A stretch of 64,000 nucleotides of DNA from Eubacteriales bacterium (GTDB lineage Bacteria; Bacillota; Clostridia; Oscillospirales; CAG-382): positions 3,449 through 67,448 of the forward strand of contig JAZOSQ010000053.1 in the NCBI GenBank assembly GCA_045657245.1. The letters run 5' to 3'. The translations under genes and the position numbers were made by a program. The number at the start of each line of letters is the position of its first letter. Within the stretch, counting starts at the first letter, position 1. This document shows positions 1 to 10,429 of the stretch, piece after piece. The notes under the pieces are model-generated. The model was not told where the DNA came from. It did no database searches and saw only the letters and a program-made list of their open reading frames with translations.

Positions 1-1101
1 AATATCCTCACAAGCGTTACCGCTGCTTCGAATATGATTAATCTTTCGCCCGATAATGTCTTGATGAGTGTTCTTCCGATGCACCATACCTATGAATTGA
101 CATGCGGTCAACTTACTGCAATTCGTTTGGGTGTGACTATTTGTATCAATAATAGTCTGAAATATTTGATGAAGAACTTTAAACTTTTCCGTCCAACGGC
201 GATGGTTGTTGTTCCGCTTTACGTTTCGACTCTCAAAAAGAGAATTTCTGATGAGATAAAGAAACGTAACAAAGAAAACATCATTAATGTTGGCGTTAAA
301 GCCACAAAGGTTCTTAGAAAAGTTGGACTTGATGCAAGAAGTCTTGTGTTCTCTGAAATTCTTGCTTCTCTTGGCGGTCGTTTGAAAGAAATTATTTGTG
401 GTGGTGCAGCAACAGATCCCGAAGCAATCAAATGGTTTTCGGATATCGGTATTAATGTTTCTCAAGGTTATGGTATAACCGAATGTTCTCCTCTCGTTGC
501 GGTAAATCCGCTCGTTACGGTTCATTATAATTCTGTCGGCATCGCAATCCCCGGCAGTAAGATAAAGATTATTGCTGACGAGGAAGAAGGCGGCGAAGTC
601 GACATTCCGAACGGTGAAATCGGTGAGATTTGCGTTAAGGGTCCTCACGTTATGCTCGGATATTACAAAGACGAGGAATCAACCAAGGCGGCATTCACCG
701 AAGAAGGATATTTCCGTACAGGCGACTATGGTTATCTTGATGATGACGGATTTCTTTTCATAACCGGCAGAAAGAAGAATATAATTATTCTTGATAACGG
801 CAAGAACGTTTATCCCGAAGAAATCGAGGAATATCTTGCAAAGGTTGAATGTATCCAAGAATGTGTTGTCATCGGCAGAGAAAACGATCTTGGTGAGGTT
901 GTTATAACTGCGTTGATCTATCCCGATTACGATATGTTTAAGGATTGTGACGATTCTGAAATAATCAATAAAATGCGTTCTGAAGTCGCAAAGATAAACA
1001 AGATTCTTCCGACATTCAAACAGATACGCAATATCGAACTCAAAAAGACAGAGTTCGAAAAAACCACAACAAAAAAAATAATGAGATATAAACTCTCATA
1101 A
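1..1101 (+). CDS. AMP-dependent acyl-CoA synthetase/ligase (long-chain-fatty-acid--CoA ligase-like); the 5' end lies outside the window
   Basis: The frame is open from base 1. The C-terminal half carries adenylate-forming enzyme motifs (GYGITE, YFRTGD, GRKKNII). Confidence 0.8.
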   Translation, partial: NILTSVTAASNMINLSPDNVLMSVLPMHHTYELTCGQLTAIRLGVTICINNSLKYLMKNFKLFRPTAMVVVPLYVSTLKKRISDEIKKRNKENIINVGVKATKVLRKVGLDARSLVFSEILASLGGRLKEIICGGAATDPEAIKWFSDIGINVSQGYGITECSPLVAVNPLVTVHYNSVGIAIPGSKIKIIADEEEGGEVDIPNGEIGEICVKGPHVMLGYYKDEESTKAAFTEEGYFRTGDYGYLDDDGFLFITGRKKNIIILDNGKNVYPEEIEEYLAKVECIQECVVIGRENDLGEVVITALIYPDYDMFKDCDDSEIINKMRSEVAKINKILPTFKQIRNIELKKTEFEKTTTKKIMRYKLS

Positions 1102-1116
1102 AAGAAGAGGTACTTT

Positions 1117-1341
1117 ATGCTTTCCAAACTCAAAGACATTCTTGTTGAAGAAATGGACATTTCTGCTGAACTTATCGTTCCCGAAGCAGAACTTATGAAC
1201 GACCTTGGTTTCAATTCTCTTGAACTTGCAGACCTTGTTGTTCTTTGCGAAGAAAAATTCAACATAAGCTTCGATGATAGTGTACTCCCGACACTCCTTA
1301 CCGTCGGCGACGTTGTTGCTTATCTCGAACAGAACGCATAA
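1117..1341 (+). CDS. acyl carrier protein (stand-alone, 74 aa)
   Basis: ACP-like length and a LGFNSLELADL phosphopantetheine-attachment-type serine motif. It starts 15 nt after the ligase stop, behind a GAGG RBS. Confidence 0.75.
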   Translation: MLSKLKDILVEEMDISAELIVPEAELMNDLGFNSLELADLVVLCEEKFNISFDDSVLPTLLTVGDVVAYLEQNA

Positions 1342-1360
1342 GTAAATAATTAAACAAAAA

Positions 1361-1392
1361 ATCACCTTGAATTTTCAAGGTGATTTTGTTTG
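1361..1392 (+). terminator. rho-independent terminator after the ACP gene
   Basis: Perfect hairpin atcaccttga/tcaaggtgat followed by a T-rich tract. Confidence 0.75.
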
Positions 1393-1405
1393 TATTTCGT
1401 AAACA

Positions 1406-1453
1406 CATAAAAATAGACACATCATAAAGGATTTCTCCAAAATGATGTGTCTA
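1406..1453 (-). terminator. rho-independent terminator of the GGGtGRT operon (minus strand)
   Basis: 12-bp perfect stem tagacacatcat/atgatgtgtcta, followed on the minus strand by TTTTTAT. Confidence 0.75.
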
Positions 1454-1498
1454 ATTTGTTTTTATAACTTATTCAGTTAAAAGTAGGGAAGAAGCGGC

Positions 1499-2497
1499 TT
1501 ATTTGCTAGCTTCTTCGATAGCAACTGCACATGCAACAGTCATACCAACCATGGGGTTGTTACCTGCGCCGATCAAGCCCATCATTTCTACGTGAGCGGG
1601 AACGGAGGAGGAACCTGCGAACTGTGCGTCAGAGTGCATTCTACCCATGGTGTCGGTCATACCGTAAGAGGAAGGACCAGCAGCCATATTATCGGGGTGG
1701 AGAGTACGACCGGTACCGCCACCGGAAGCAACGGAGAAATATTCTCTGCCGTTTTCAACACACCACTTCTTGTAGGTGCCTGCAACGGGGTGTTGGAAGC
1801 GGGTGGGGTTGGTGGAGTTACCGGTGATGGAAACGCCAACCTTTTCAAGCTTCATGATAGCAACGCCTTCGGGAACGTTATCAGAGCCGTAGCACTTAAC
1901 GTCTGCACGAGGACCCTTGGAGAAGGGAATTTCCTTAACAACCTTAACTTCTTCGGTATAAGGATCGAATTCGGTTTCAACATAGGTGAAGCCGTTGATA
2001 CGAGAGATGATATATGCAGCGTCTTTGCCGAGACCGTTAAGGATAACGCGGAGAGCGTTCTTACGAACCTTGTTTGCGTTAAGAGCAATCTTGATAGCGC
2101 CTTCAGCAGCAGCGAAGGATTCGTGACCTGCGAGGAAGCAGAAGCAGTCGGTTTCTTCGGAAAGAAGCATTTTACCGAGGTTACCGTGGCCAAGACCAAC
2201 CTTACGGTTTTCTGCAACGGATCCAGGGATACAGAAGGACTGAAGACCGATACCGATTGCAGCAGCAGCGTCAGCAGCTTTGGTGCAACCCTTCTTAATA
2301 GCTATTGCAGCGCCAACAGTGTATGCCCAAACAGCGTTTTCAAAGCAGATGGGCTGGGTGCTGCGGATAATCTTATCGATGTCGATACCCTTAGCGAGAG
2401 TGATTTCTTTGCACTCCTCGATGGAGGAAATGCCGTATTCTTTAAGACAAGCGTTGATTTTCTCAACACGTCTTTCGTAACCTTCAAACAATGACAT
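1499..2497 (-). CDS. GGGtGRT family protein (conserved, function unknown)
   Basis: 332 aa, containing the literal family motif SGGGTGRTLHP. Strong AGGAGG RBS upstream. Confidence 0.85.
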   Translation of the reverse strand: MSLFEGYERRVEKINACLKEYGISSIEECKEITLAKGIDIDKIIRSTQPICFENAVWAYTVGAAIAIKKGCTKAADAAAAIGIGLQSFCIPGSVAENRKVGLGHGNLGKMLLSEETDCFCFLAGHESFAAAEGAIKIALNANKVRKNALRVILNGLGKDAAYIISRINGFTYVETEFDPYTEEVKVVKEIPFSKGPRADVKCYGSDNVPEGVAIMKLEKVGVSITGNSTNPTRFQHPVAGTYKKWCVENGREYFSVASGGGTGRTLHPDNMAAGPSSYGMTDTMGRMHSDAQFAGSSSVPAHVEMMGLIGAGNNPMVGMTVACAVAIEEASK

Positions 2498-2514
2498 GGT
2501 ATTTACCTCCTAAA

Positions 2515-3210
2515 TTATTCATGACGGGGGTCAATATATTTGACCGCGTCTTCAAATCTACCGTAAGTGCCGATGGACTGGTTGTATGCTTCGTTGGGTT
2601 CCATACCTTTTTTGATGAAGTCGGTCATTTTTCCGAGAGATACGAATTCGTAACCGATAACTTCGTCATTTTCGTCAAGAGCCATACGAGTGCAGTAACC
2701 TTCGGTCATTTCGAGGTAACGAACGCCCTTTGCTTTGGAACCATACATAGTACCAACCATGGAACGAGAACCTTTACCGAGGTCTTCCATACCTGCACCG
2801 ATAACAAGACCGCCTTCGGAGAAAGCAGACTGAGAACGACCGTATACGATCTGGAGGAAGAGTTCGCGCATTGCTGTGTTGATAGCATCGCAAACAAGGT
2901 CGGTGTTGAGAGCTTCGAGAATGGTCTTGCCGGGAAGAATTTCAGCAGCCATAGCCGCAGAGTGAGTCATACCGGAGCAACCGATGGTTTCTACGAGAGC
3001 TTCTTCGATAATGCCGTCTTTGACATTAAGAGAAAGCTTGCATGCGCCCTGCTGAGGTGCACACCAACCCACACCGTGAGTGTAAGCGGAAATGTCTTTG
3101 ATTTCCTTTGCCTGTACCCACTTGCCTTCTTCGGGAATGGGAGCAGGACCGTGCTTCGGGCCTTTAGCCACAACGCACATGTTTTCAACTTCTTTTGAAT
3201 ACTGCAACAT
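2515..3210 (-). CDS. NifU/IscU-like N-terminal-domain protein with a roughly 100-aa C-terminal extension
   Basis: Cys-containing scaffold-like motifs (GWCAPQQGAC, IGCSGMTHSA, LVCDAI). It sits 17 nt upstream of the GGGtGRT gene on the same strand. Confidence 0.65.
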   Translation of the reverse strand: MLQYSKEVENMCVVAKGPKHGPAPIPEEGKWVQAKEIKDISAYTHGVGWCAPQQGACKLSLNVKDGIIEEALVETIGCSGMTHSAAMAAEILPGKTILEALNTDLVCDAINTAMRELFLQIVYGRSQSAFSEGGLVIGAGMEDLGKGSRSMVGTMYGSKAKGVRYLEMTEGYCTRMALDENDEVIGYEFVSLGKMTDFIKKGMEPNEAYNQSIGTYGRFEDAVKYIDPRHE

Positions 3211-3246
3211 TGAAAAAAATCCTTTCGCTTTATCTTTTTTATTTGT

Positions 3247-3822
3247 TTATTTTATTATTTCTGCATAAACTTCGCCGCTGCATCCCGCTGCATTCGCTTC
3301 ATCGGTATCGATATGTATTGCAGGAGCAAAATTGGGATTTACTCTAACAACGACGTCACCGAAAATGAGGGAACGGTCTGCTGTACAAACTTTAGCGGAA
3401 ACGATCTGTTTGTCAGAAACGCCAAGTTCTTCGGCAGTAGCAGGGTCAAGGTGCATATGTCTTTTTGCCGCGATAGCGCCTTCGGTGATTTCAACTTCAC
3501 CTGCAGGACCAACAAGCTTCAAAGCACCGCTTCCTGCGATATCACCGGATTCACGTACAGGAACGGAAATTCCGAGCGCACGAGCATCAGTGAGAGAAAT
3601 TTCAACCTGAGTAGCGGGTCTTGTGGGGCCGAGAATAAGCACATTGTTGATTGCGCCTTTGGGACCTACCAAGTTGATTCTTTCATTGCTCGCAAACTGA
3701 CCGGGCTGAGAAAGCATCTTTTTTACAGTAAGGGTTTGTCCTTTACCGAGCAAGGTTTCCATATCTGCTTCCGTAAGGTGTACGTGACGGGCAGACGTTT
3801 CGACGAGTATTTTCTTTTCCAT
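3247..3822 (-). CDS. pduL: phosphate propanoyltransferase / phosphotransacylase PduL
   Basis: 191 aa with the duplicated PduL signature (SARHVHLTEAD and AKRHMHLDPAT). Confidence 0.85.
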   Translation of the reverse strand: MEKKILVETSARHVHLTEADMETLLGKGQTLTVKKMLSQPGQFASNERINLVGPKGAINNVLILGPTRPATQVEISLTDARALGISVPVRESGDIAGSGALKLVGPAGEVEITEGAIAAKRHMHLDPATAEELGVSDKQIVSAKVCTADRSLIFGDVVVRVNPNFAPAIHIDTDEANAAGCSGEVYAEIIK

Positions 3823-3857
3823 TGGTTATATACCGCCTTTCTTTTATTAATCAACTT

Positions 3858-3886
3858 ATTATATATCAAAACTTTCCTTTTGTAAA
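3858..3886 (-). promoter_or_regulatory. candidate sigma-A promoter for pduL / NifU-like / GGGtGRT
   Basis: On the minus strand: TTTACA, 17-nt spacer, TATAAT. Confidence 0.45.
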
Positions 3887-3908
3887 TGGTATTTTGCAAA
3901 AAATTGTG

Positions 3909-3937
3909 TTGAAATAGCAAATGTTGTGTGTTATAAT
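3909..3937 (+). promoter_or_regulatory. candidate sigma-A promoter for aminotransferase-trpS
   Basis: TTGAAA, 17-nt spacer, TATAAT, with TG just upstream of the -10. It lies 35 nt before the ATG. Confidence 0.6.
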
Positions 3938-3972
3938 ACAAGTTATTGAATGGATAATAGGAGAATTTTGCC

Positions 3973-5145
3973 ATGGAATATATTTTTTCAAATAAAGTTA
4001 AGGATATGAAGCCCTCTGCGATCAGAGAAATATTCAAATCGCTTTCCGATCCGAACGTAATTTCTTTTGCTGCAGGAAATCCCTCTCCGCTTTCTTTTCC
4101 TGTTGAAAAGATGCATTCTGTCGCCGAAGAAATTTTTCAGAACGAAGCATCGTTTGCTTTCCAATATGGTATAACCGAAGGTTATCCTCGTTTGAGAGAA
4201 CAAATCTCTTTGCGACTCAAAGAAAGATTCAACACGGGTTCTGATGACGACGAGGTTATCATCACAACGGGCGGACAACAGGGTATAGACCTTTGTGCGA
4301 AAGTACTTTGTAATGAAGGTGACGTTGTTATTTGTGAAAATCCAAGCTTCATCGGTGCGCTTAACGCGTTCCGCTCTTATAACACAAAACTTGTCGGCAT
4401 CGATCTCGAAAATGATGGTATGAACATCGAAGCGCTCGAAAACGCTCTTAAAGCAAACCCGAACGCAAAGATGATATACGTTATACCTACGTTCCAAAAC
4501 CCCGCGGGAATCACAACTTCGCTTGAAAAAAGAAAAGCAATACTTGACTTGGCAAAGAAATATGACGTCATAATTCTCGAAGACAATCCTTATGGAGAAC
4601 TTCGATTCTCGGGCGAAGATGTGCCCACGATAAAGAGTCTTGATACAGAAGGCAGAGTTGTTTACTGTTCTTCTTTCTCGAAGATTCTTTCTGCCGGTAT
4701 GCGTATCGGTTTTGTTTGCGGTCCTAAGGAATTGGTTCAAAAAATCGTCGTTTTGAAACAGGTTAACGACGTTCATACAAATCTTTTCTTCCAAATGGTT
4801 GCATCGAAGTTTATTGATAAATACGGTCTTGACGATCACATTAATTTTATAAAAAAATTATATCGTGATAAATGCAATTTGATGCTTTCCGAACTTGATA
4901 AGCATATTGCGGGCAAAGCGGAATATACTCGTCCCGACGGCGGTTTGTTCATTTGGGTTACCGTTAAAGGCGGCAACGGTGATGAAATAGCGAAGAAAGC
5001 TATTGCAAATAAACTTGCTGTTGTTACGGGTTCAAGCTTTAATCCGATTCAAGGCGGTTACTCTCCTTCGGTCAGACTTAATTATTCTACACCGTCCGAT
5101 GAACAGATCGTTGAAGGTGTAAAACGTCTTGCGAGTGTATTATAA
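3973..5145 (+). CDS. PLP-dependent aminotransferase, class I/II (2-aminoadipate/aromatic aminotransferase-like)
   Basis: 390 aa with the typical fold-type I layout, including SFSKILSAGMRIG with the PLP lysine. Confidence 0.8.
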   Translation: MEYIFSNKVKDMKPSAIREIFKSLSDPNVISFAAGNPSPLSFPVEKMHSVAEEIFQNEASFAFQYGITEGYPRLREQISLRLKERFNTGSDDDEVIITTGGQQGIDLCAKVLCNEGDVVICENPSFIGALNAFRSYNTKLVGIDLENDGMNIEALENALKANPNAKMIYVIPTFQNPAGITTSLEKRKAILDLAKKYDVIILEDNPYGELRFSGEDVPTIKSLDTEGRVVYCSSFSKILSAGMRIGFVCGPKELVQKIVVLKQVNDVHTNLFFQMVASKFIDKYGLDDHINFIKKLYRDKCNLMLSELDKHIAGKAEYTRPDGGLFIWVTVKGGNGDEIAKKAIANKLAVVTGSSFNPIQGGYSPSVRLNYSTPSDEQIVEGVKRLASVL

Positions 5146-5155
5146 GGAGCTTTAT

Positions 5156-6160
5156 ATGGAAAATCAAAATATAAAAAAGACAATTCTTTCGGGTGTACAG
5201 CCGTCCGGAACTTTAACAATCGGTAACTATCTTGGCGCGCTTCGCAATTGGGCAACCTTGCAATATGATTACAACTGCTATTTTTGTGTCGCTGACCTTC
5301 ATGCAATAACTGTTCGTCAGGTGCCTGCGGAGCTTCGTCAAAATTGCTTGAAAACACTTGCACTTTATCTCGCATCAGGCATTGATCCCGAAGCAAATGC
5401 ATTGTTTTTGCAAAGCCACGTTCCCGCTCACGCGGAACTTTCTTGGGTTCTTTCCTGTTACACGATGTTTGGCGAGCTTTCACGTATGACACAATTCAAA
5501 GATAAATCCGCAAAACATTCTGATAATATCAATGCAGGTCTTTTCACATATCCCGTTCTTATGGCGGCGGATATTCTTCTTTATCAACCCGACCTTGTTC
5601 CTGTTGGTAACGATCAAAAACAACACATTGAACTTGCGCGTGATATCGCAAATCGTTTTAACAACACATATTCGGAAACCTTCAAGGTTCCCGAACCTTA
5701 TATGCCCAAGGCGGGTGCAAGAATAATGTCGCTTTCCGATCCGACCTCAAAGATGAGCAAATCTGATTTGGGTGATGGAAGTATATTCTTGCTTGATGAT
5801 AGGGATACTGCTATTCGCAAAATCAAACGTGCCGTTACCGATTCGGGTTCGGAAGTTAAATTTGCCGAAGGTAAGGATGGCATTAATAACCTTATGTCGA
5901 TCTATTCTGCGTTCACAGAAAAGAGCTTCGATGAAATTGAAAAGGAATTTGAAGGCAAGGGATACGGTGTATTCAAACTTGCCGTCGGCGAAGTTGTTGC
6001 TGACGCACTTTCTGATTTCCAGGATAAGTATAAAGTCTTCATTTCCGATAAAGAACAGCTTAACAAGATACTTATTGAAGGCGCACAGAAAGCTTCCTAT
6101 GCCGCAGAAAAGACACTCAGAAAAGTTTACCGTAAGGTCGGTTTTTATTCTGTAAAATAA
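5156..6160 (+). CDS. trpS: tryptophan--tRNA ligase
   Basis: SGVQPSGTLTIGNYLGA (HIGH-type region) and KMSKS are present. The start was moved to the ATG preceded by an AGGAG RBS. Confidence 0.9.
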   Translation: MENQNIKKTILSGVQPSGTLTIGNYLGALRNWATLQYDYNCYFCVADLHAITVRQVPAELRQNCLKTLALYLASGIDPEANALFLQSHVPAHAELSWVLSCYTMFGELSRMTQFKDKSAKHSDNINAGLFTYPVLMAADILLYQPDLVPVGNDQKQHIELARDIANRFNNTYSETFKVPEPYMPKAGARIMSLSDPTSKMSKSDLGDGSIFLLDDRDTAIRKIKRAVTDSGSEVKFAEGKDGINNLMSIYSAFTEKSFDEIEKEFEGKGYGVFKLAVGEVVADALSDFQDKYKVFISDKEQLNKILIEGAQKASYAAEKTLRKVYRKVGFYSVK

Positions 6161-6206
6161 TAAAAATTTATTCCTGACCGAGAATAACGAAAAAGGAAAA
6201 TGATTT

Positions 6207-8189
6207 ATGGCTAAGAAAACAGTCGATTACGATAACCAGACAATTTCATCTCTTAAAGGCGCAGACAGAGTTCGTTTGCGTCCTGCTGTTATTTTCGGAT
6301 CTGACGGTATCGAGGGTTGTCAACACTCTTTCTTTGAAATACTTTCCAACTCTATCGATGAATATCGCGAAGGATATGGCAATCGTATTAACGTCACAGT
6401 ATATAACGACAGAACGATGGAAGTCGAAGACTTTGGACGCGGCGTTCCGCTCGATTGGAACGAAAAAGAACAAAAATACAACTGGGAACTCGTATATTGC
6501 GAACTTTATGCAGGTGGTAAATATAATAACGCTGAAGGCGGTGCATACGAATATTCCCTCGGTTTGAACGGTCTCGGCGCTTGTGCTACTCAGTATGCGT
6601 CCGAATTTATGGACATCACGTCCTATCAAAGAGGTACAAAATACAATATAAGTTTCCAAACGGGTGAACCTGTAACTGAGCTTATAAAAAGCGAATGTCC
6701 AAAGAACAAGACGGGTACAGTCGTTCGCTGGAAGAGTGATAAGGCGGTATTCACAGATACTGCAATTCCTCGCGAATACTTCAGCACAGTATTGAAGAAA
6801 CAAGCGGTTGTAAACGCCGGATTAACTCTTTCTTTGAAATGGCAGAAGACAGATAATTCTTTTGAAACCGAAGAATATTGCTATAATAACGGCATAACCG
6901 ACTATATCAGAGAAATAGTCGGTGAAAATACGCTTTCACCTATTGCGGATTATTCCGCGGAACGTGTTGGTCGTGATAGTCCTGACAGAAGCGAATATAA
7001 GGTAAAAATGCAATTCGCTTGTTGTTTCACAAACGAAGTGAATTTGATTGAATACTATCACAATTCGTCATATCTTGAACACGGCGGTTCTCCCGACAAA
7101 GCGGCAAGAAGCGCTTTCGTTTGGGCGATAGACCAATACGCAAAAAATAACGGAAAATACAACAAAAACGAAAGCAAAATTTTGTTTTCCGACGTAGAGG
7201 ATTCGTTGGTTCTTGTCGTAAACTCTTTTTCAACTCAGACTTCTTATGCAAACCAAACTAAAAAAGCAATAAATAACGTTTTCATCGCAGAAGCGATGAC
7301 CGAATTCTTCAAACATTCTCTCGAGGTTTTCTTTGCTGAAAATCCTCAGGCGGCAGATAAAATCGTAACACAGATACTCGTTAATAAACGTGCAAGAGAA
7401 TCGGCAGAGCATATGAGAGTTTCTTCTAAGAAGAAGCTTACTGCTACGCTTGATATTACTAACACCGTAGAAAAATTTGTCGGTTGCCGTCTTCGTGACC
7501 CCGATAGATGTGAATTATACATCGTTGAAGGCGATTCGGCATTGACGAGTTGTAAATTGGCGAGAGATTCGGAATTTCAGGCGATAATACCCGTTCGTGG
7601 TAAAACGCTCAACTGTCTTAAAGCATCGTTTGACAGAATAATGAAGAGCGATATCATTCTTGACCTTGTTAAAGTTATCGGATGCGGAGTTGAAGCGAAA
7701 CAGCTTCGTGTTAAAGGTGTTTCTTCGTTTGATCTTTCCGCTTTGCGTTGGGATAAAATCATCATATGTACCGATGCCGATGAAGATGGATATCAGATCA
7801 GAACATTGATTTTGACGATGTTTTATCGTCTTCTTCCGACGTTGATTAAAGAAGGTCGTATCTATATCGCAGAAACTCCTCTTTATGAAATTACGTGCGG
7901 TAATGACACACATTTCGCTTACAGCGAAGCAGAAAAAGCTGCTATACTCGAAAAAATCGGCGATAAAAAGTTCACAATACAACGTTCAAAGGGTCTTGGT
8001 GAAAACGATGCGGATATGATGAGTTTAACAACAATGAACCCTGCAACGAGAAGACTTATCAGAATTTCTCCCGAAGACGAAGAAAAGACATATCAAATGT
8101 TTGACGTTCTATTGGGCGATAATATTCTAGGAAGAAAAGACTTTATCGCTAAAAATGGTGCAAAATATCTTAATTTAGCAGATTATTAA
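6207..8189 (+). CDS. type IIA DNA topoisomerase subunit B (GyrB/ParE family, ParE-like)
   Basis: 660 aa with a GHKL ATPase N-terminus and Toprim motifs (EGDSA, PVRGKTLN, DADEDGYQI). Confidence 0.8.
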   Translation: MAKKTVDYDNQTISSLKGADRVRLRPAVIFGSDGIEGCQHSFFEILSNSIDEYREGYGNRINVTVYNDRTMEVEDFGRGVPLDWNEKEQKYNWELVYCELYAGGKYNNAEGGAYEYSLGLNGLGACATQYASEFMDITSYQRGTKYNISFQTGEPVTELIKSECPKNKTGTVVRWKSDKAVFTDTAIPREYFSTVLKKQAVVNAGLTLSLKWQKTDNSFETEEYCYNNGITDYIREIVGENTLSPIADYSAERVGRDSPDRSEYKVKMQFACCFTNEVNLIEYYHNSSYLEHGGSPDKAARSAFVWAIDQYAKNNGKYNKNESKILFSDVEDSLVLVVNSFSTQTSYANQTKKAINNVFIAEAMTEFFKHSLEVFFAENPQAADKIVTQILVNKRARESAEHMRVSSKKKLTATLDITNTVEKFVGCRLRDPDRCELYIVEGDSALTSCKLARDSEFQAIIPVRGKTLNCLKASFDRIMKSDIILDLVKVIGCGVEAKQLRVKGVSSFDLSALRWDKIIICTDADEDGYQIRTLILTMFYRLLPTLIKEGRIYIAETPLYEITCGNDTHFAYSEAEKAAILEKIGDKKFTIQRSKGLGENDADMMSLTTMNPATRRLIRISPEDEEKTYQMFDVLLGDNILGRKDFIAKNGAKYLNLADY

Positions 8190-10429
8190 TGAGGTTAGGA
8201 ATGGCAAGAAAAAAGTCAAAAGTAATCGAACCGCAAATTATATCCGAACCTATTGACGTTAATATAACAAACGTACTTGAAACAAACTATATGCCTTATG
8301 CGATGAGCGTTATTGTTTCTCGTGCGATTCCCGAAATCGACGGGTTCAAGCCGGCACACAGAAAGCTTCTTTATACGATGTATAAAATGGGGCTTTTGAA
8401 CGGACAAAAGCAGAAAAGCGCAAAAGTTGTCGGTCAAACAATGGTTTTGAACCCTCACGGCGATGCTGCAATCTATGAAACGCTTGTCCGTCTCACAACG
8501 GGCAAGGAATGTCTTTTGCATCCGTTTATAGAATCGAAGGGAAGCTTTGGTAAACAGTATTCTGATATGGCGTATGCCGCTTCACGTTATACTGAATGTA
8601 AATTGGCTAAATTCAGCGAAGAAATTTTCGACGGCATTGACAGAGATGCAGTTGATTTTGTAGATAACTACGATAGCACGACGACAGAACCTGTTGTTTT
8701 GCCGACGAGCTTTCCGAATATACTTGTTTCTCCGAACTCGGGTATTGCTGTTGGTATGGCAAGTGATATATGTTCGTTCAACCTTCGTGAAGTGTGCGAG
8801 GTCACCTCGGCATTTCTCCGTAATGAAAACATCACAACCGATGAAATCTTGGATATCTTAAAAGCTCCCGACTTCTCGACCGGCGGTTTGTTGATATATG
8901 ATAAGAACAAGCTTCGCGAAATTTATGAAACGGGAAGAGGTTCCGTTAAGGTTAGAGCAAAATACGTTTATGATAAAAGCGAAAACCGTATTGAAGTATT
9001 GCAGATACCTTATACGACCACGCTCGAAAAAATACGCGAGAGTATGATCCAACTTGCCAAGGAAGGCAAGATTAAGGATGTTTCCGACGTTCGCGACGAG
9101 ATCGATATAAACGGCTTCAAAATGGCAATCGATCTCAAAAGAGGTGCAGATCCCGAAAAGTTAATGCGTAAGCTTTTCAAGATGACAAAGCTTGAGGATG
9201 ATTTTAAGTGTAATTTCAATATACTTGTCGGCGGTGTTCCTCAAACTATGGGAATTAAGCAAATTCTCGAAGAATGGTGTGCATTCCGAATTGAATGTTT
9301 ACGCAGAACATATATTTTCGACCTTGGAAAGAAGAACGAAAAGCTTCATCTTCTTTACGGTTTAAGGTCTATTTTGCTCGATATTGATAAAGCGATTGCT
9401 ATTATCAGAGGTACCGAAAACGAAAAAGACGTTGTTCCCAACTTGATGAGCGGTTTTTCGATTGATGAAATTCAGGCGGAATATGTTGCCGATATTAAAC
9501 TTCGTAATCTTAATAAACAATATATTCTCAAGCGAATCGACGAAATCGGACAGCTTGAAAAGGATATCGAGGAACTCAAGCTTTTGATATCGAGTGAAAG
9601 ACGAATCAAAACCCGTATTATAAAGCAGTTGAACGAAATTGCAAACAAATATGGTGTTCCAAGAAAAACCTATATAATAGACAGCACTGAAATTTGTGAC
9701 GAGGACACCGAAGAACCGATTCCCGATTATCCTTGTGAAGCATTTTTGAGCGTTGAGGGATATTTCAAAAAATGTACCTTGGCTTCTTTGAGAGGTAACG
9801 ACGTACAGAAATTCAAAGAAAATGACTCTTTGAGAACGAAATTTATCACGAAAAACAACGAAGAAGTTCTTTTCTTTACTTCTGATGCACAGGTTTATAA
9901 ATCCCGTCTTGATGATTTTGAAGATACGAAGGCAAGTGCACTTGGCGAATACGTTCCTGGCAAACTCAAATTCAATGAAAACGAAAAAGTTGTATCTGCG
10001 ATTTGTTTGGGCGAGTATAACGGCAGAGTTGTTCTCTTTTTCGAAAACGGTAAAGCAGTCTCTCTGCCTATGGACGTATATGCAACGAAAACAAACCGCA
10101 AGAAGTTGACGAATGCATTCTTCGGCGGAAGTACTCTTATTGCGGCATTTATGGCTACTGACAAGGCTGAATATCTTGTCCGTTCCGACGACGGCAGAGC
10201 ATTGTTGATTAAAGATAATCAAATTATTGAGAAAACGACACGTACCTCTTCGGGAAGCACTCTCTTTACTTTGAAAAAGGGAAAGAAAGTTGTTTCAGTC
10301 GAGATATACGATCGCGAAAAACAGCCATTATTGAAAGAATCTCGTTACAGAAAGAGTAAATTACCGGCATCGGGCGTGATTTTTGAGGATATTGATCCCG
10401 ATATAACCCAGCAAACTCTTCTTGATTGA
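8189..10429 (+). CDS. type IIA DNA topoisomerase subunit A (GyrA/ParC family, ParC-like)
   Basis: Contains AMSVIVSRAIPEIDGFKPAHRKLLY and the active-site region AASRYTE. The start could instead be the ATG at 8201, which has a GAGG RBS. Confidence 0.8.
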   Translation: MRLGMARKKSKVIEPQIISEPIDVNITNVLETNYMPYAMSVIVSRAIPEIDGFKPAHRKLLYTMYKMGLLNGQKQKSAKVVGQTMVLNPHGDAAIYETLVRLTTGKECLLHPFIESKGSFGKQYSDMAYAASRYTECKLAKFSEEIFDGIDRDAVDFVDNYDSTTTEPVVLPTSFPNILVSPNSGIAVGMASDICSFNLREVCEVTSAFLRNENITTDEILDILKAPDFSTGGLLIYDKNKLREIYETGRGSVKVRAKYVYDKSENRIEVLQIPYTTTLEKIRESMIQLAKEGKIKDVSDVRDEIDINGFKMAIDLKRGADPEKLMRKLFKMTKLEDDFKCNFNILVGGVPQTMGIKQILEEWCAFRIECLRRTYIFDLGKKNEKLHLLYGLRSILLDIDKAIAIIRGTENEKDVVPNLMSGFSIDEIQAEYVADIKLRNLNKQYILKRIDEIGQLEKDIEELKLLISSERRIKTRIIKQLNEIANKYGVPRKTYIIDSTEICDEDTEEPIPDYPCEAFLSVEGYFKKCTLASLRGNDVQKFKENDSLRTKFITKNNEEVLFFTSDAQVYKSRLDDFEDTKASALGEYVPGKLKFNENEKVVSAICLGEYNGRVVLFFENGKAVSLPMDVYATKTNRKKLTNAFFGGSTLIAAFMATDKAEYLVRSDDGRALLIKDNQIIEKTTRTSSGSTLFTLKKGKKVVSVEIYDREKQPLLKESRYRKSKLPASGVIFEDIDPDITQQTLLD

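What the first reader, a model, noticed from the sequence alone, without database searches (positions are those of the whole stretch)
1499..3886. Tight operon linking two function-unknown proteins (GGGtGRT and NifU-like) to the phosphotransacylase PduL
On the minus strand a promoter-like element is followed by pduL, then a 231-aa NifU/IscU-like Cys-rich protein after a 36-nt gap, then a 332-aa protein with the literal GGGTGRT motif after a 17-nt gap, then a strong terminator. PduL chemistry (acyl-CoA plus phosphate to acyl-phosphate) is established. To my knowledge neither the GGGtGRT family nor this extended NifU-like form has an assigned function. The compact co-transcription argues for a shared pathway. 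One possibility is a thiol or Fe-S dependent step feeding or using an acyl-CoA or acyl-phosphate. An acyl-CoA ligase and a stand-alone ACP converge on the same terminators from the other side, so the neighbourhood is consistently acyl-thioester related.
Basis: partly seen in the sequence, partly recalled or inferred. Interest (0 to 1): 0.6.

Follow-up and report, generated by a model that had tools for sequence, protein, structure and literature searches.

The report
Unknown iron-sulfur gene pair beside PduL
The three-gene operon is real, but its conserved core is a very widespread, highly expressed, iron-dependent protein pair of unknown function (GGGtGRT plus an IscU-like partner), whose neighbours point to the last steps of glycolysis and make it a testable candidate for the enolase that many gut and rumen anaerobes lack.

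Summary
On the minus strand a promoter-like site is followed by pduL (3247-3822), a NifU/IscU-like gene (2515-3210) and a GGGtGRT gene (1499-2497). The gaps are 36 and 17 nt, and two strong terminator hairpins follow.

The conserved unit is the NifU-like/GGGtGRT pair. It was adjacent in 146 of 146 loci with enough flanking DNA, with a median gap of 17-18 nt, across Firmicutes, Bacteroidota, Verrucomicrobiota, Actinomycetota, Vibrio and a methanogen. PduL is linked only in Oscillospirales-type relatives: 21 of 65 loci there, and 0 of 80 diverse loci.

GGGtGRT is an orphan fold. My AF2 model has pLDDT 85, and no PDB entry matches by sequence or Foldseek. It is 69-78% identical across phyla. The partner has an IscU-like fold but lacks IscU scaffold hallmarks and carries five invariant Cys.

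Published data show strong iron-dependent, very high expression and a glycolysis-linked phenotype in B. thetaiotaomicron. No published function was found.

Elsewhere the pair sits next to eno, gpmI, apgM, pgk-tpiA and dPGM-like genes. It is abundantly expressed in Prevotella brevis GA33, where enolase is the only missing glycolytic enzyme.

My best reading is a two-subunit Fe-S enzyme at the 3PG/2PG/PEP node, possibly an oxygen-labile enolase analogue. This is unproven.

The parts
3858..3886 (-). Promoter-like site, TTTACA-17 nt-TATAAT, 36 nt upstream of the pduL start
   Evidence: 11 of 12 consensus matches; sequence read. A divergent promoter-like site for the aminotransferase lies at 3909-3937 (+).
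3247..3822 (-). pduL, phosphate acyltransferase (acyl-CoA + Pi <-> acyl-phosphate + CoA). Short form without an N-terminal extension.
   Evidence: PF06130 at 252 bits; NF011652 at 244.6 bits (cutoff 209). PDB 5cuo at E=8e-42 over residues 5-181. Both RHxHL motifs are visible in the translation. No BMC shell genes in the first 10.4 kb of the window that I annotated.
3211..3246 (-). 36-nt pduL/nifU-like spacer with the RBS-like sequence GAAAGGA. No hairpin.
   Evidence: Sequence read.
2515..3210 (-). IscU-fold ('NifU-like') partner subunit, 231 aa. Invariant C12, C50, C57, C78, C107 and H45. Family-specific C-terminal domain of about 120 aa.
   Evidence: weak NifU_N/IscU hits over residues about 50-112. 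(Foldseek to ISCU/IscU, E=3e-5). (alignments).
2498..2514 (-). 17-nt spacer with a strong RBS, AGGAGG (2506-2511), for GGGtGRT. Typical tight coupling of the pair.
   Evidence: Gap distribution across 155 loci has a median of 17-18 nt.
1499..2497 (-). GGGtGRT protein, 332 aa. N-terminal helical domain, then a Rossmann-like alpha/beta core with GLGKDAA (GxGxxA) after the strand at residues 150-156, then the ultra-conserved C-terminal Gly/His/Arg-rich region.
   Evidence: PF14057 at 643.6 bits. AF2 model pLDDT 84.9, pTM 0.85. No PDB relative. Invariant residues.
1703..1723 (-). Codons for the literal GGGTGRT motif (residues 259-265), directly after the strand at residues 254-258. The region from residue 260 to about 290 is the only low-confidence part of the model.
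   Evidence: Translation; model.
1408..1453 (-). First intrinsic-terminator-like hairpin (12-bp stem UAGACACAUCAU/AUGAUGUGUCUA) followed by UUUUUA
   Evidence: region z-score -8.0.
1358..1387 (.). Second hairpin with a 13-bp stem, bidirectional. Shared with the convergent ACP gene.

Best explanation
The locus is a tri-cistronic operon: sigma-70-like promoter, then pduL, the IscU-like gene and GGGtGRT, then a double terminator.

Its functional core is the IscU-like/GGGtGRT pair. This is an obligate, translationally coupled two-subunit protein found as a self-contained cassette in anaerobes of many phyla.

I read the pair as an iron-sulfur enzyme, not as a cluster-assembly scaffold.
- The IscU-fold subunit would hold a permanent Fe-S cluster on its five invariant cysteines.
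- The GGGtGRT subunit is an orphan fold with a Rossmann-like core and a Gly/Arg/His-rich anion-binding region. It would bind a phosphorylated C3 acid.

The step is most likely at the 3-phosphoglycerate / 2-phosphoglycerate / PEP node of lower glycolysis. My preferred specific reaction is oxygen-labile, Fe-S-dependent dehydration of 2-phosphoglycerate to PEP. That would be an enolase isoenzyme or analogue, in the way that Fe-S fumarase FumA parallels iron-free FumC.

In this window's lineage the cassette sits behind a housekeeping, non-microcompartment PduL. PduL converts acetyl/acyl-CoA to acyl-phosphate, two steps further down the same fermentation route. The link to PduL is therefore co-expression of fermentation genes, not a dedicated PduL pathway.

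Shown here: the operon anatomy, the strict pairing, the extreme conservation, the orphan fold, the Cys pattern, and the neighbourhood statistics.

Taken from the literature: iron-dependent high expression and the B. thetaiotaomicron phenotype.

Inferred: Fe-S binding, complex formation, the substrate, and the reaction.
For: Strict pairing:
- The IscU-like gene lies immediately upstream of GGGtGRT in 77 of 77 genome loci and 69 of 69 metagenome loci with enough upstream DNA.
- The median gap is 17-18 nt, and the genes overlap by 5-14 nt in the divergent clade.

Conservation:
- At 50% clustering there is essentially one full-length cluster plus one divergent clade.
- Identity to the window protein is 76% in Akkermansia, 74% in a Methanobacteriaceae MAG, 77% in Parabacteroides, 73% in Collinsella and 69% in Vibrio.
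- The pair is more conserved than GyrB in the same loci. In L021, GyrB is 72% and TrpS 65%, against 86% and 89% for the pair.

Not a canonical scaffold:
- Only the IscU C63 equivalent aligns. C37, D39, H105 and LPPVK are absent.
- Scores are far below the NCBIfam cutoffs: 19-26 bits against cutoffs of 92-192.

Iron-consumer behaviour:
- BT0173-74 falls 11-13-fold under iron limitation (PMC10434189).
- C. pasteurianum GGGtGRT is 7.1-fold (early) and 2.2-fold (late) higher with iron, like hydrogenase and PFOR (PMC5395762).

High abundance in vivo: PMC11204068, PMC7035244 and PMC12078515.

Lower-glycolysis association:
- L162 reads pgk-tpiA-gpmI-IscU-like-GGGtGRT on one strand, with a 61-nt gap.
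- Enolase is the immediate neighbour in L114 (divergent) and L174 (convergent).
- pgk-tpiA lies 3 kb upstream in L111.
- All 5 divergent-clade genomes carry ApgM (517 bits against a cutoff of 489) in the operon. They also carry His_Phos_1, GpmI or HAD genes in rearranged orders.
- The B. thetaiotaomicron screen for loss of glucose repression hit only pfkA, mdpA (which acts through pyruvate kinase) and BT0173-4 (bioRxiv 10.64898/2026.04.10.717545).

Missing-enolase fit:
- In P. brevis GA33 every EMP step has a gene and a protein except enolase.
- GGGtGRT (115 and 152 spectra) and the adjacent NifU homolog (104 and 110) are abundant in that same proteome (PMC10542786).
- S. copri DSM 18205 is eno-negative (bioRxiv 10.64898/2026.06.02.729653). 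Its GGGtGRT is an immunodominant antigen. That JCM 13464 is the same strain as DSM 18205 is from my own knowledge.

PduL linkage: 21 of 65 loci in three arrangements, scattered on the tree.
Against: - No biochemical evidence exists for a cluster, a complex or any activity.
- The IscU fold is not known as a catalytic subunit of hydro-lyases.
- The GxGxxA-plus-Asp fingerprint in the Rossmann-like core hints at a dinucleotide and thus redox chemistry, which a dehydratase would not need.
- Most carriers (B. thetaiotaomicron, L114, L174) also have canonical enolase.
- The pair is common in Bacteroidales generally, so its presence in eno-negative Prevotella is expected by phylogeny alone.
- Glycolytic neighbours occur in only a handful of about 175 loci. 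In most genomes the pair stands alone with unrelated neighbours.
- Some neighbours suggest redox stress or Fe-S biogenesis instead: suf operon, OsmC, TlpA, nitroreductase, rubredoxin, flavodoxin.
- B. proteoclasticus extracts showed no significant enolase activity (PMC11026938). An oxygen-labile enzyme could explain that, but so could true absence of the activity.
- The IscU-like AF2 model is poor (pLDDT 57.8).
Confidence: 0.4

Rival explanations
1. Fe-S cluster biogenesis, repair or storage module. The IscU-like protein is a genuine scaffold or carrier, and GGGtGRT is its accessory factor (for example a nucleotide-dependent transfer or repair factor) serving the abundant Fe-S enzymes of anaerobes.
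For: - IscU-like fold, with the C63-equivalent Cys aligned.
- In Collinsella the pair lies just downstream of sufB-sufD-sufS-sufU.
- Neighbours such as OsmC, TlpA, nitroreductase, rubredoxin and flavodoxin occur in other genomes.
- The pair is expressed alongside rubrerythrins (PMC11204068).
Against: - It lacks the IscU hallmarks D39, H105 and LPPVK, and the first Cys is displaced.
- It is never next to a cysteine desulfurase except in Collinsella, where a transposase separates them and a separate SufU is present.
- It is strongly repressed, not induced, by iron limitation.
- Its abundance matches that of central enzymes.
- This reading does not explain the eno, gpmI, apgM and pgk neighbours.
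Confidence: 0.2
2. A redox enzyme at the same metabolic node or in stress defence. One version is a ferredoxin/flavodoxin-linked oxidoreductase, such as a non-tungsten glyceraldehyde-3-phosphate oxidoreductase producing 3PG. Another is a reductase for an oxidant or nitro compound. The Rossmann-like domain would bind a dinucleotide and the IscU-like subunit would relay electrons.
For: - The GLGKDAA (GxGxxA) motif follows the strand at residues 150-156, and a conserved D178 lies at the end of the next strand.
- The best Foldseek hits are NAD(P) Rossmann enzymes.
- Iron-dependent expression parallels hydrogenase and PFOR.
- Neighbours include rubredoxin, flavodoxin, nitroreductase and FAD proteins.
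- PGM neighbours would also fit a 3PG-forming step.
Against: - Foldseek matches are not significant (best E=0.02, TM 0.2-0.27).
- No flavin or pterin domain was detected.
- In P. brevis GA33, GAPDH and PGK are present and expressed, and the only gap is enolase.
- The redox-type neighbours are different in each genome.
Confidence: 0.15
3. One reading: a dedicated PduL pathway in which the pair performs a thiol- or Fe-S-dependent step that feeds or uses an acyl-CoA or acyl-phosphate.
For: - PduL is the single most recurrent neighbour in Oscillospirales-type loci (21 of 65). It occurs in three arrangements scattered over the tree.
- In 5 loci an SGNH/GDSL acyl-hydrolase sits between pduL and the pair.
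- Gaps of 31-120 nt leave no room for a separate promoter.
Against: - 0 of 80 diverse loci have PduL within 6 kb, and none of the other phyla do.
- The pair keeps its own promoter region in most genomes.
- GC3 of pduL (0.37) differs from that of the pair (0.47-0.50).
- The ACP and acyl-CoA ligase neighbours are convergent and not conserved.
Confidence: 0.08
4. Sulfur-transfer system. The IscU-like protein would act like SufU, as a persulfide carrier. GGGtGRT would be an ATP-dependent thiolation enzyme for a cofactor or metabolite.
For: - Weak SufU similarity.
- Invariant cysteines.
- A glycine-rich loop that could bind a nucleotide.
- ThiC is a neighbour in the archaeal contig.
Against: - No cysteine desulfurase, ThiS/MoaD-like carrier or adenylating domain is associated with the pair.
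- The abundance is far above that of typical cofactor-biosynthesis enzymes.
- Iron-dependent repression is not explained.
- The glycolytic neighbours are not explained.
Confidence: 0.05

Closest known systems
BT0173-BT0174 of Bacteroides thetaiotaomicron and T433DRAFT_01350-01351 of Prevotella brevis GA33 (GGGtGRT protein plus 'NifU homolog')
   Same: The same two families, adjacent, about 75% identical to the window proteins at family level. Iron-repressed and highly expressed. Function unknown.
   Different: Those are stand-alone bicistrons. The window copy is fused behind pduL into a three-gene operon, an arrangement seen only in Oscillospirales-type genomes.
IscU / SufU Fe-S scaffold proteins (PF01592, TIGR01999, TIGR01994)
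   Same: Residues about 43-112 of the partner adopt an IscU-like beta-sheet and helix. The Cys equivalent to IscU C63 is invariant.
   Different: - Below the family thresholds.
- Lacks C37 in place, D39, H105 and the LPPVK chaperone motif.
- Has extra invariant C12, C50, C57 and C107, and a C-terminal domain of about 120 aa with no match.
- Always paired with GGGtGRT, not with a desulfurase.
Phosphotransacylase-led fermentation operons (pta-ackA, ptb-buk, pduL-pduW)
   Same: A phosphotransacylase gene leads a short, tightly spaced operon for the end of a fermentation route.
   Different: The downstream genes are not a kinase. There is no sequence or profile similarity to kinases (the PFK comparison gave hhalign probability 0.18). 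PduL here lacks microcompartment context.
Oxygen-labile [4Fe-4S] hydro-lyases with iron-free isoenzymes (class I fumarase FumA versus FumC; L-serine dehydratase SdaA/SdaAA-AB; tartrate dehydratase TtdAB)
   Same: - The proposed logic matches: abundant in anaerobes, repressed when iron is scarce, and dispensable where an iron-free isoenzyme exists.
- Some of these enzymes are two-subunit.
- The proposed chemistry (removal of a beta-hydroxyl from a 2-substituted 3-hydroxy acid) matches serine dehydratase.
- These points rest on established knowledge of those families.
   Different: No sequence or fold relationship was detected. The cluster-binding subunit here has an IscU fold. The activity is entirely hypothetical.
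Enolase (PF03952 / PF00113)
   Same: The candidate reaction is the same (2PG to PEP). Enolase genes are immediate neighbours of the pair in two genomes, and the pair occupies the usual eno position after gpmI in L162.
   Different: Unrelated in sequence and in predicted fold. Enolase is a Mg-dependent TIM-barrel enzyme with no iron requirement.

Membership tests
PduL / PTAC phosphate acyltransferase (PF06130) | Profile match above the curated thresholds over the full length | tested here: met
   PF06130 at 252.1 bits (cutoff 25), residues 7-181. NF011652 at 244.6 bits (cutoff 209). PDB 5cuo at E=8e-42.
PduL / PTAC phosphate acyltransferase (PF06130) | Duplicated domain, each half carrying a metal-binding RHxH motif | tested here: met
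   ARHVHL (residues 11-16) and KRHMHL (residues 119-124) in the translation align to 5cuo.
PduL / PTAC phosphate acyltransferase (PF06130) | Microcompartment association (N-terminal encapsulation peptide, BMC shell genes nearby). This defines the Pdu/Eut subtype only. | tested here: not met
   The protein starts 4 residues before the conserved core. BMC_EutD_Gpos scores 243.5 bits, below its cutoff of 315. No shell genes among the neighbours annotated in the window up to 10.4 kb or in L001-L021. So this is a housekeeping-type PduL.
PduL / PTAC phosphate acyltransferase (PF06130) | Acyl-CoA:phosphate acyltransferase activity | not testable with these tools
   Needs an enzyme assay.
GGGtGRT protein family (PF14057) | Full-length profile match and the literal GGGTGRT motif | tested here: met
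   643.6 bits, profile positions 1-327 of 327. Motif at residues 259-265, invariant in 66 sequences.
GGGtGRT protein family (PF14057) | Obligate adjacency to the IscU-like partner. This is an empirical feature of the family established here. | tested here: met
   17-nt gap in the window. 77 of 77 and 69 of 69 loci elsewhere.
IscU/NifU_N Fe-S scaffold (PF01592, TIGR01999, TIGR03419) | Profile score above the gathering or curated cutoff | tested here: not met
   PF01592 at 21.7 bits (cutoff 22). TIGR03419 at 26.3 (cutoff 187.9). TIGR01999 at 23.2 (cutoff 192.4).
IscU/NifU_N Fe-S scaffold (PF01592, TIGR01999, TIGR03419) | IscU fold | tested here: inconclusive
   Foldseek of the AF2 model hits ISCU/IscU at E=3e-5, probability 1.0, TM(target) about 0.5. 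However, the model is low-confidence (pLDDT 57.8; core 65-81) and only about 100 residues match.
IscU/NifU_N Fe-S scaffold (PF01592, TIGR01999, TIGR03419) | Three cluster-ligand cysteines at IscU positions 37, 63 and 106 | tested here: not met
   Only C63 aligns (to C78). Position 37 aligns to Gln, with C50 and C57 flanking it. The C106 region is deleted, and C107 follows directly after the NTD motif.
IscU/NifU_N Fe-S scaffold (PF01592, TIGR01999, TIGR03419) | Cluster-labilising Asp39, His105 and the LPPVK chaperone-binding motif | tested here: not met
   A56 aligns at the D39 position. No LPPVK and no His before C107 (using the E. coli IscU sequence recalled from memory; against PDB IscU chains agree).
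Fe-S hydro-lyase acting as an enolase analogue (hypothetical class) | Presence in genomes that lack enolase but keep the rest of glycolysis | tested here: inconclusive
   Two strain-level cases from the literature: P. brevis GA33 and S. copri DSM 18205 / JCM 13464.
Fe-S hydro-lyase acting as an enolase analogue (hypothetical class) | Fe-S cluster and 2PG dehydratase activity | not testable with these tools
   Needs anaerobic biochemistry.

The most novel reading that the evidence does not exclude
The GGGtGRT / IscU-like pair is the long-sought 'missing enolase' of host-associated anaerobes. It would be an oxygen-labile, iron-sulfur-dependent 2-phosphoglycerate dehydratase built from an orphan fold plus an IscU-fold cluster subunit. 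It would work as the sole enolase in eno-negative Butyrivibrio, Pseudobutyrivibrio, Prevotella/Segatella, Endomicrobia and similar organisms. It would work as an iron-replete isoenzyme where canonical enolase is also present. Oxygen lability would also explain why aerobic assays of B. proteoclasticus extracts found no enolase activity.
Probability: 0.3. Interest if true: 0.92.

Novelty: new variant of a known kind. Interest (0 to 1): 0.72.

Why it matters
GGGtGRT and its IscU-like partner are among the most conserved and most highly expressed proteins of unknown function in gut, rumen and termite-gut anaerobes. They are catalogued in Pfam, and several omics papers call them 'poorly characterised'. 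No function has been proposed.

This follow-up changes the question from 'what does PduL's neighbour do?' to a concrete and cheap test. The absence of enolase from many saccharolytic anaerobes has been unexplained since 2010, and recent reviews call it urgent. The evidence assembled here nominates one specific candidate:
- the gene neighbourhoods (eno, gpmI, apgM, pgk-tpiA);
- the iron regulation;
- the B. thetaiotaomicron glycolysis screen;
- the abundance of the pair in the eno-negative P. brevis GA33 proteome.

If the hypothesis is true, it adds a new enzyme class to glycolysis and a catalytic role for the IscU fold. It would also correct metabolic models of major gut and rumen taxa.

If it is false, the pair is still a high-value unknown with a defined set of alternatives.

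Tried and rejected
- **PFK/NAD-kinase-like phosphotransferase idea for GGGtGRT.** This was prompted by Foldseek hits to T. brucei PFK, the GGDG[ST]-like loop, an MGR tripeptide and the pfkA co-hit in B. thetaiotaomicron. hhalign of the family profile against E. coli PfkA gave probability 0.18, matching only the MGR tripeptide. Rejected.
- **Remote homology of GGGtGRT.** phmmer and hmmsearch against the PDB, Pfam at E<=10 on the whole protein and on halves, and Foldseek against the PDB gave nothing significant.
- **C-terminal domain of the partner.** No Pfam or PDB match. There was only a non-significant resemblance to the lipoate-ligase C-domain.
- **AF2 model of the partner.** It was poor because only close homologues could be used.
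- **Riboswitch or RNA element in the operon.** Rfam found nothing credible.
- **Recurrent neighbours in diverse genomes.** Clustering about 870 flanking ORFs from about 90 loci gave no family in more than 5 loci. In the Oscillospirales set only PduL recurs.
- **Mobile-element carriage.** 'Plasmid' hits are chromids or mis-labelled chromosome pieces, all typed non-mobilizable. 'Phage' hits are unannotated faecal contigs.
- **Exact look-up of the window protein's contig.** Not on record.
- **Upstream operator motifs.** TGTGAA-type half-sites and a TGTGCAAATTCACA palindrome were seen near promoters of some loci. They were not analysed further.
- **Divergent-clade 2TM protein.** No family match.

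Full report
**Observation**

- GGGtGRT: 1499-2497, 332 aa.
- NifU-like protein: 2515-3210, 231 aa.
- PduL: 3247-3822, 191 aa.
- Spacers: 17 nt and 36 nt. The first contains AGGAGG.

An 11-of-12 sigma-70-like site (TTTACA-17-TATAAT, 3886..3858) lies 36 nt upstream of pduL. Such sites are not enriched in the region as a class (7 found, 4.9+/-2.0 expected).

Two hairpins follow GGGtGRT, at 1453-1414 plus a U-tract and at 1387-1358. The region folds at -45.3 kcal/mol, z = -8.0.

Family assignments hold for PduL and GGGtGRT.
- PduL: PF06130 at 252 bits; NF011652 at 244.6 bits against a cutoff of 209; 5cuo at E=8e-42.
- GGGtGRT: PF14057 at 643.6 bits, full length.
- The third protein only brushes NifU_N, at 21.7 bits against a gathering score of 22, over residues 57-114.

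PduL lacks an N-terminal extension and any microcompartment context, so I read it as a housekeeping phosphotransacylase.

The source is an uncultured Eubacteriales/Oscillospirales-type gut MAG. L001 is 99% identical.

**What the conserved unit is**

I examined 80 species-representative genome loci that are 86-99% identical in GGGtGRT.
- The NifU-like gene lies immediately upstream of GGGtGRT in 77 of 77 loci with enough upstream DNA.
- The other three loci have fewer than 300 nt upstream.

I then examined 80 much more diverse metagenome loci, seeded with the Akkermansia-type protein.
- The figure there is 69 of 69.
- The same pairing holds in a Methanobacteriaceae MAG, Akkermansia, Parabacteroides, Bacteroides finegoldii, Collinsella, Vibrio, Persicobacter and a divergent clade.
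- The stop-to-start distance has a median of 17-18 nt (n=155). It is an overlap of 5-14 nt in the divergent clade.

This is the signature of a stoichiometric two-subunit protein.

**PduL linkage**

PduL is the single most recurrent neighbour in the Oscillospirales-type set.
- It occurs in 21 of 65 loci with at least 1 kb upstream.
- It occurs in three arrangements: directly upstream; upstream with an SGNH/GDSL hydrolase inserted (5 loci); and downstream (2 loci).
- These loci are scattered over a tree of the pair.

Outside that set the link disappears.
- PduL is absent from all 80 diverse loci within +/-6 kb.
- It is absent from every other context examined.

GC3 of the pair (0.50 and 0.47) stands apart from pduL (0.37) and from all other neighbours (0.36-0.40).

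The convergent ACP and acyl-CoA ligase are not conserved neighbours. L001, at 99% identity, has about 3.1 kb inserted, and several relatives lack them altogether.

The 'acyl-thioester neighbourhood' argument therefore does not hold. The PduL link is real but lineage-specific.

**The proteins**

GGGtGRT:
- A scan of 1.84 billion cluster representatives shows essentially one full-length 50% cluster, one divergent clade at about 50% identity, and otherwise fragments or chimeras.
- Cross-phylum identity to the window protein is 69-78%.
- In shared loci the pair is more conserved than GyrB or TrpS.
- The AF2 model is confident (pLDDT 84.9, pTM 0.85).
- The model shows a helical N-domain and a Rossmann-like core. 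The invariant GLGKDAA motif follows the strand at residues 150-156.
- The ultra-conserved GGGTGRT...HPDN...GRMHSD...PAHVEMMG region is the only low-confidence part of the model.
- Nothing in the PDB matches by sequence or profile.
- Nothing matches by Foldseek either (best E=0.02, TM 0.2-0.27, generic Rossmann folds).

The partner:
- It matches IscU structures only over about 100 residues.
- Alignment to IscU shows that only the C63 equivalent (C78) is in place.
- C37, D39, H105 and LPPVK are missing.
- C12, C50, C57, C78, C107 and H45 are invariant across both clades.

I therefore do not file the partner as an IscU scaffold. It looks like an IscU-fold protein that holds its own cluster.

**Literature**

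No function is published in the searchable library. Relevant data are as follows.
- BT0173-BT0174 falls 11-13-fold under iron limitation (PMC10434189).
- C. pasteurianum GGGtGRT is 7.1-fold and 2.2-fold higher with iron, like hydrogenase and PFOR (PMC5395762).
- The pair is highly expressed in vivo in distant taxa, and authors call it poorly characterised (PMC11204068, PMC7035244, PMC12078515).
- A B. thetaiotaomicron transposon screen for loss of glucose repression of Cur hit only three loci: pfkA; mdpA, which acts through pyruvate kinase; and BT0173-4, which gave a 2-fold effect with no growth defect (bioRxiv 10.64898/2026.04.10.717545).

**Neighbourhoods outside the window's lineage**

Most genomes carry the pair as a stand-alone bicistron with unrelated neighbours. 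The exceptions cluster on lower glycolysis.
- L162 reads pgk-tpiA-gpmI-IscU-like-GGGtGRT on one strand, with a 61-nt gap. This is the position that eno usually occupies in Firmicute gap operons. That usual order is from my own knowledge.
- L111 has pgk-tpiA 3 kb upstream.
- Bona fide enolase genes are the immediate neighbours in L114 (divergent, 376 nt) and L174 (convergent, 96 nt).
- All five divergent-clade genomes place an ApgM-type phosphoglycerate mutase in the operon (517 bits against an equivalog cutoff of 489).
- Those genomes also carry His_Phos_1 (dPGM superfamily), GpmI or HAD genes in rearranged orders, plus a conserved 2TM protein of unknown function.

As a rough estimate of my own, about 0.14 immediate-neighbour eno genes would be expected by chance among about 175 loci. 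Two were seen.

Three non-homologous phosphoglycerate-mutase types recurring next to the pair point to 2PG/3PG as the shared theme.

**The missing-enolase connection**

Enolase is absent from the following organisms.
- B. proteoclasticus and most Butyrivibrio (PMC6912079).
- P. xylanivorans MA3014 and P. ruminis AD2017 (PMC7523725).
- S. copri DSM 18205.
- Endomicrobia and other termite-gut symbionts (PMC11257099).
- P. brevis GA33, in both genome and proteome (PMC10542786).

Reviews call this gap unsolved (PMC11187502, PMC11026938).

In the P. brevis GA33 supplement, every EMP step has a gene and a detected protein except enolase. GAPDH, PGK, GpmI, ApgM and pyruvate kinase are all present. 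The same proteome contains GGGtGRT (T433DRAFT_01350; 115 and 152 spectra, 79-86% coverage). It also contains the adjacent NifU homolog (01351; 104 and 110 spectra, 91-100% coverage), at levels similar to DnaK and glutamate dehydrogenase.

S. copri JCM 13464 is the same strain as DSM 18205 (my own knowledge). Its GGGtGRT is abundant enough to be an immunodominant antigen.

These cases are necessary but not sufficient evidence, because Bacteroidales generally carry the pair.

**Mechanism proposed**

Shown here:
- an obligate, tightly coupled pair;
- an orphan-fold subunit with a Rossmann-like core and an invariant Gly/Arg/Lys/His-rich region suited to binding an anionic or phosphorylated ligand;
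- an IscU-fold subunit with five invariant Cys and without scaffold hallmarks;
- neighbourhood enrichment for the 3PG/2PG/PEP node.

Taken from the literature:
- iron-consumer-type regulation;
- very high expression;
- a glycolysis-linked phenotype.

Inferred:
- The pair is a two-subunit Fe-S enzyme of lower glycolysis.
- My preferred reaction is Fe-S-assisted dehydration of 2PG to PEP. This is chemically parallel to [4Fe-4S] L-serine dehydratase, and physiologically parallel to FumA against FumC.
- Oxygen lability would explain the negative aerobic enolase assays in B. proteoclasticus.

In this window, pduL-IscU-like-GGGtGRT would simply co-express steps of the same PEP, pyruvate, acetyl-CoA, acetyl-phosphate route.

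I put about 0.4 on the general statement (Fe-S enzyme at this node) and about 0.3 on the specific enolase-analogue reading.

**Rivals**

- An Fe-S biogenesis or repair module. For: suf adjacency in Collinsella, and redox-stress neighbours. Against: the direction of iron regulation, the missing scaffold motifs and the abundance.
- A dinucleotide-dependent, ferredoxin-linked oxidoreductase. For: the GxGxxA-plus-Asp fingerprint. Against: the P. brevis gap being enolase, not GAPDH.
Against: its phyletic restriction.
- A SufU-like sulfur relay.

All four remain open and are scored in the rival list.

**Verdict**

The window's operon is a lineage-specific variant of a catalogued but uncharacterised gene pair. 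The pair itself lies far from any characterised system. It now has a specific, falsifiable functional hypothesis that bears on a 15-year-old gap in anaerobe glycolysis.

Noticed in passing
window 1341-1499 compared with L001:10996-14135: In a MAG whose proteins are 99% identical, about 3.1 kb is inserted between GGGtGRT and the convergent ACP gene. In the window they are only about 160 nt apart. L003 has about 5 kb there, and L016 about 0.4 kb. This spot is a hot spot for insertion or deletion just beyond the terminators.
   Followed up: partly
window 1499-3210 compared with 3247-10429: GC3 of GGGtGRT (0.50) and the NifU-like gene (0.47) is well above that of pduL (0.37) and every other neighbour (0.36-0.40). 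This could reflect codon bias of very highly expressed genes, or lateral acquisition of the two-gene cassette. The cross-phylum and cross-domain identity of 69-78% fits transfer among gut anaerobes.
   Followed up: partly
P0001, P0002, P0007, P0018, P0126: Metagenome-derived 'long' GGGtGRT and NifU-like proteins (384-461 aa and 285 aa) contain internal near-duplicate segments. They score higher than the self-match. They look like assembly chimeras of co-occurring strains, not real fusions.
   Followed up: partly
L081:9005-9958, L091:8996-9943, L094:6992-7972, L096:2067-3065: In the divergent clade a conserved protein of 315-332 aa always follows GGGtGRT. It has two N-terminal transmembrane helices and no family match. 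It is 24-50% identical between genomes. It may be a third component specific to that clade.
   Followed up: partly
Upstream regions of the pair, e.g. L026, L027, L032, L005, L006, L008, L066: TGTGAA-type half-sites, and a TTGTGCAAATTCACA-like palindrome, overlap or follow the -10 box in several stand-alone loci. This may be an operator for a Crp/Fnr- or Rex-like regulator. The window's own promoter upstream of pduL lacks it.
   Followed up: no
L187 (Collinsella aerofaciens NZ_OY725717.1), locus coordinates 1-6993: The pair lies directly downstream of sufB-sufD-sufS-sufU, separated by a transposase gene, and is followed by a fumarate-reductase-like FAD protein. This is the only context seen that links the pair to Fe-S assembly genes.
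   Followed up: partly
L024:4511-5191 and four other loci (L039, L041, L058, L078): An SGNH/GDSL acyl-hydrolase gene is inserted between pduL and the NifU-like gene. It has weak similarity to the TesA thioesterase family. It is a second acyl-related gene in the PduL-linked arrangement.
   Followed up: partly
window 5129-5145: The listed TrpS ORF (TTG start at 5129) overlaps the end of the aminotransferase gene (stop at 5145). The true trpS start is probably a downstream ATG.
   Followed up: no
phage collection hits MT837192.1, MT835590.1 and others: Six unannotated 'Bacteriophage sp.' records from human faecal viromes carry GGGtGRT at 72-98% identity. They are most likely bacterial contigs mis-binned as phage.
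   Followed up: no
L091:11192-11584: A Fur-family regulator gene lies about 0.6 kb downstream of the divergent-clade operon, on the opposite strand. This is of interest given the strong iron regulation reported for the pair.
   Followed up: no
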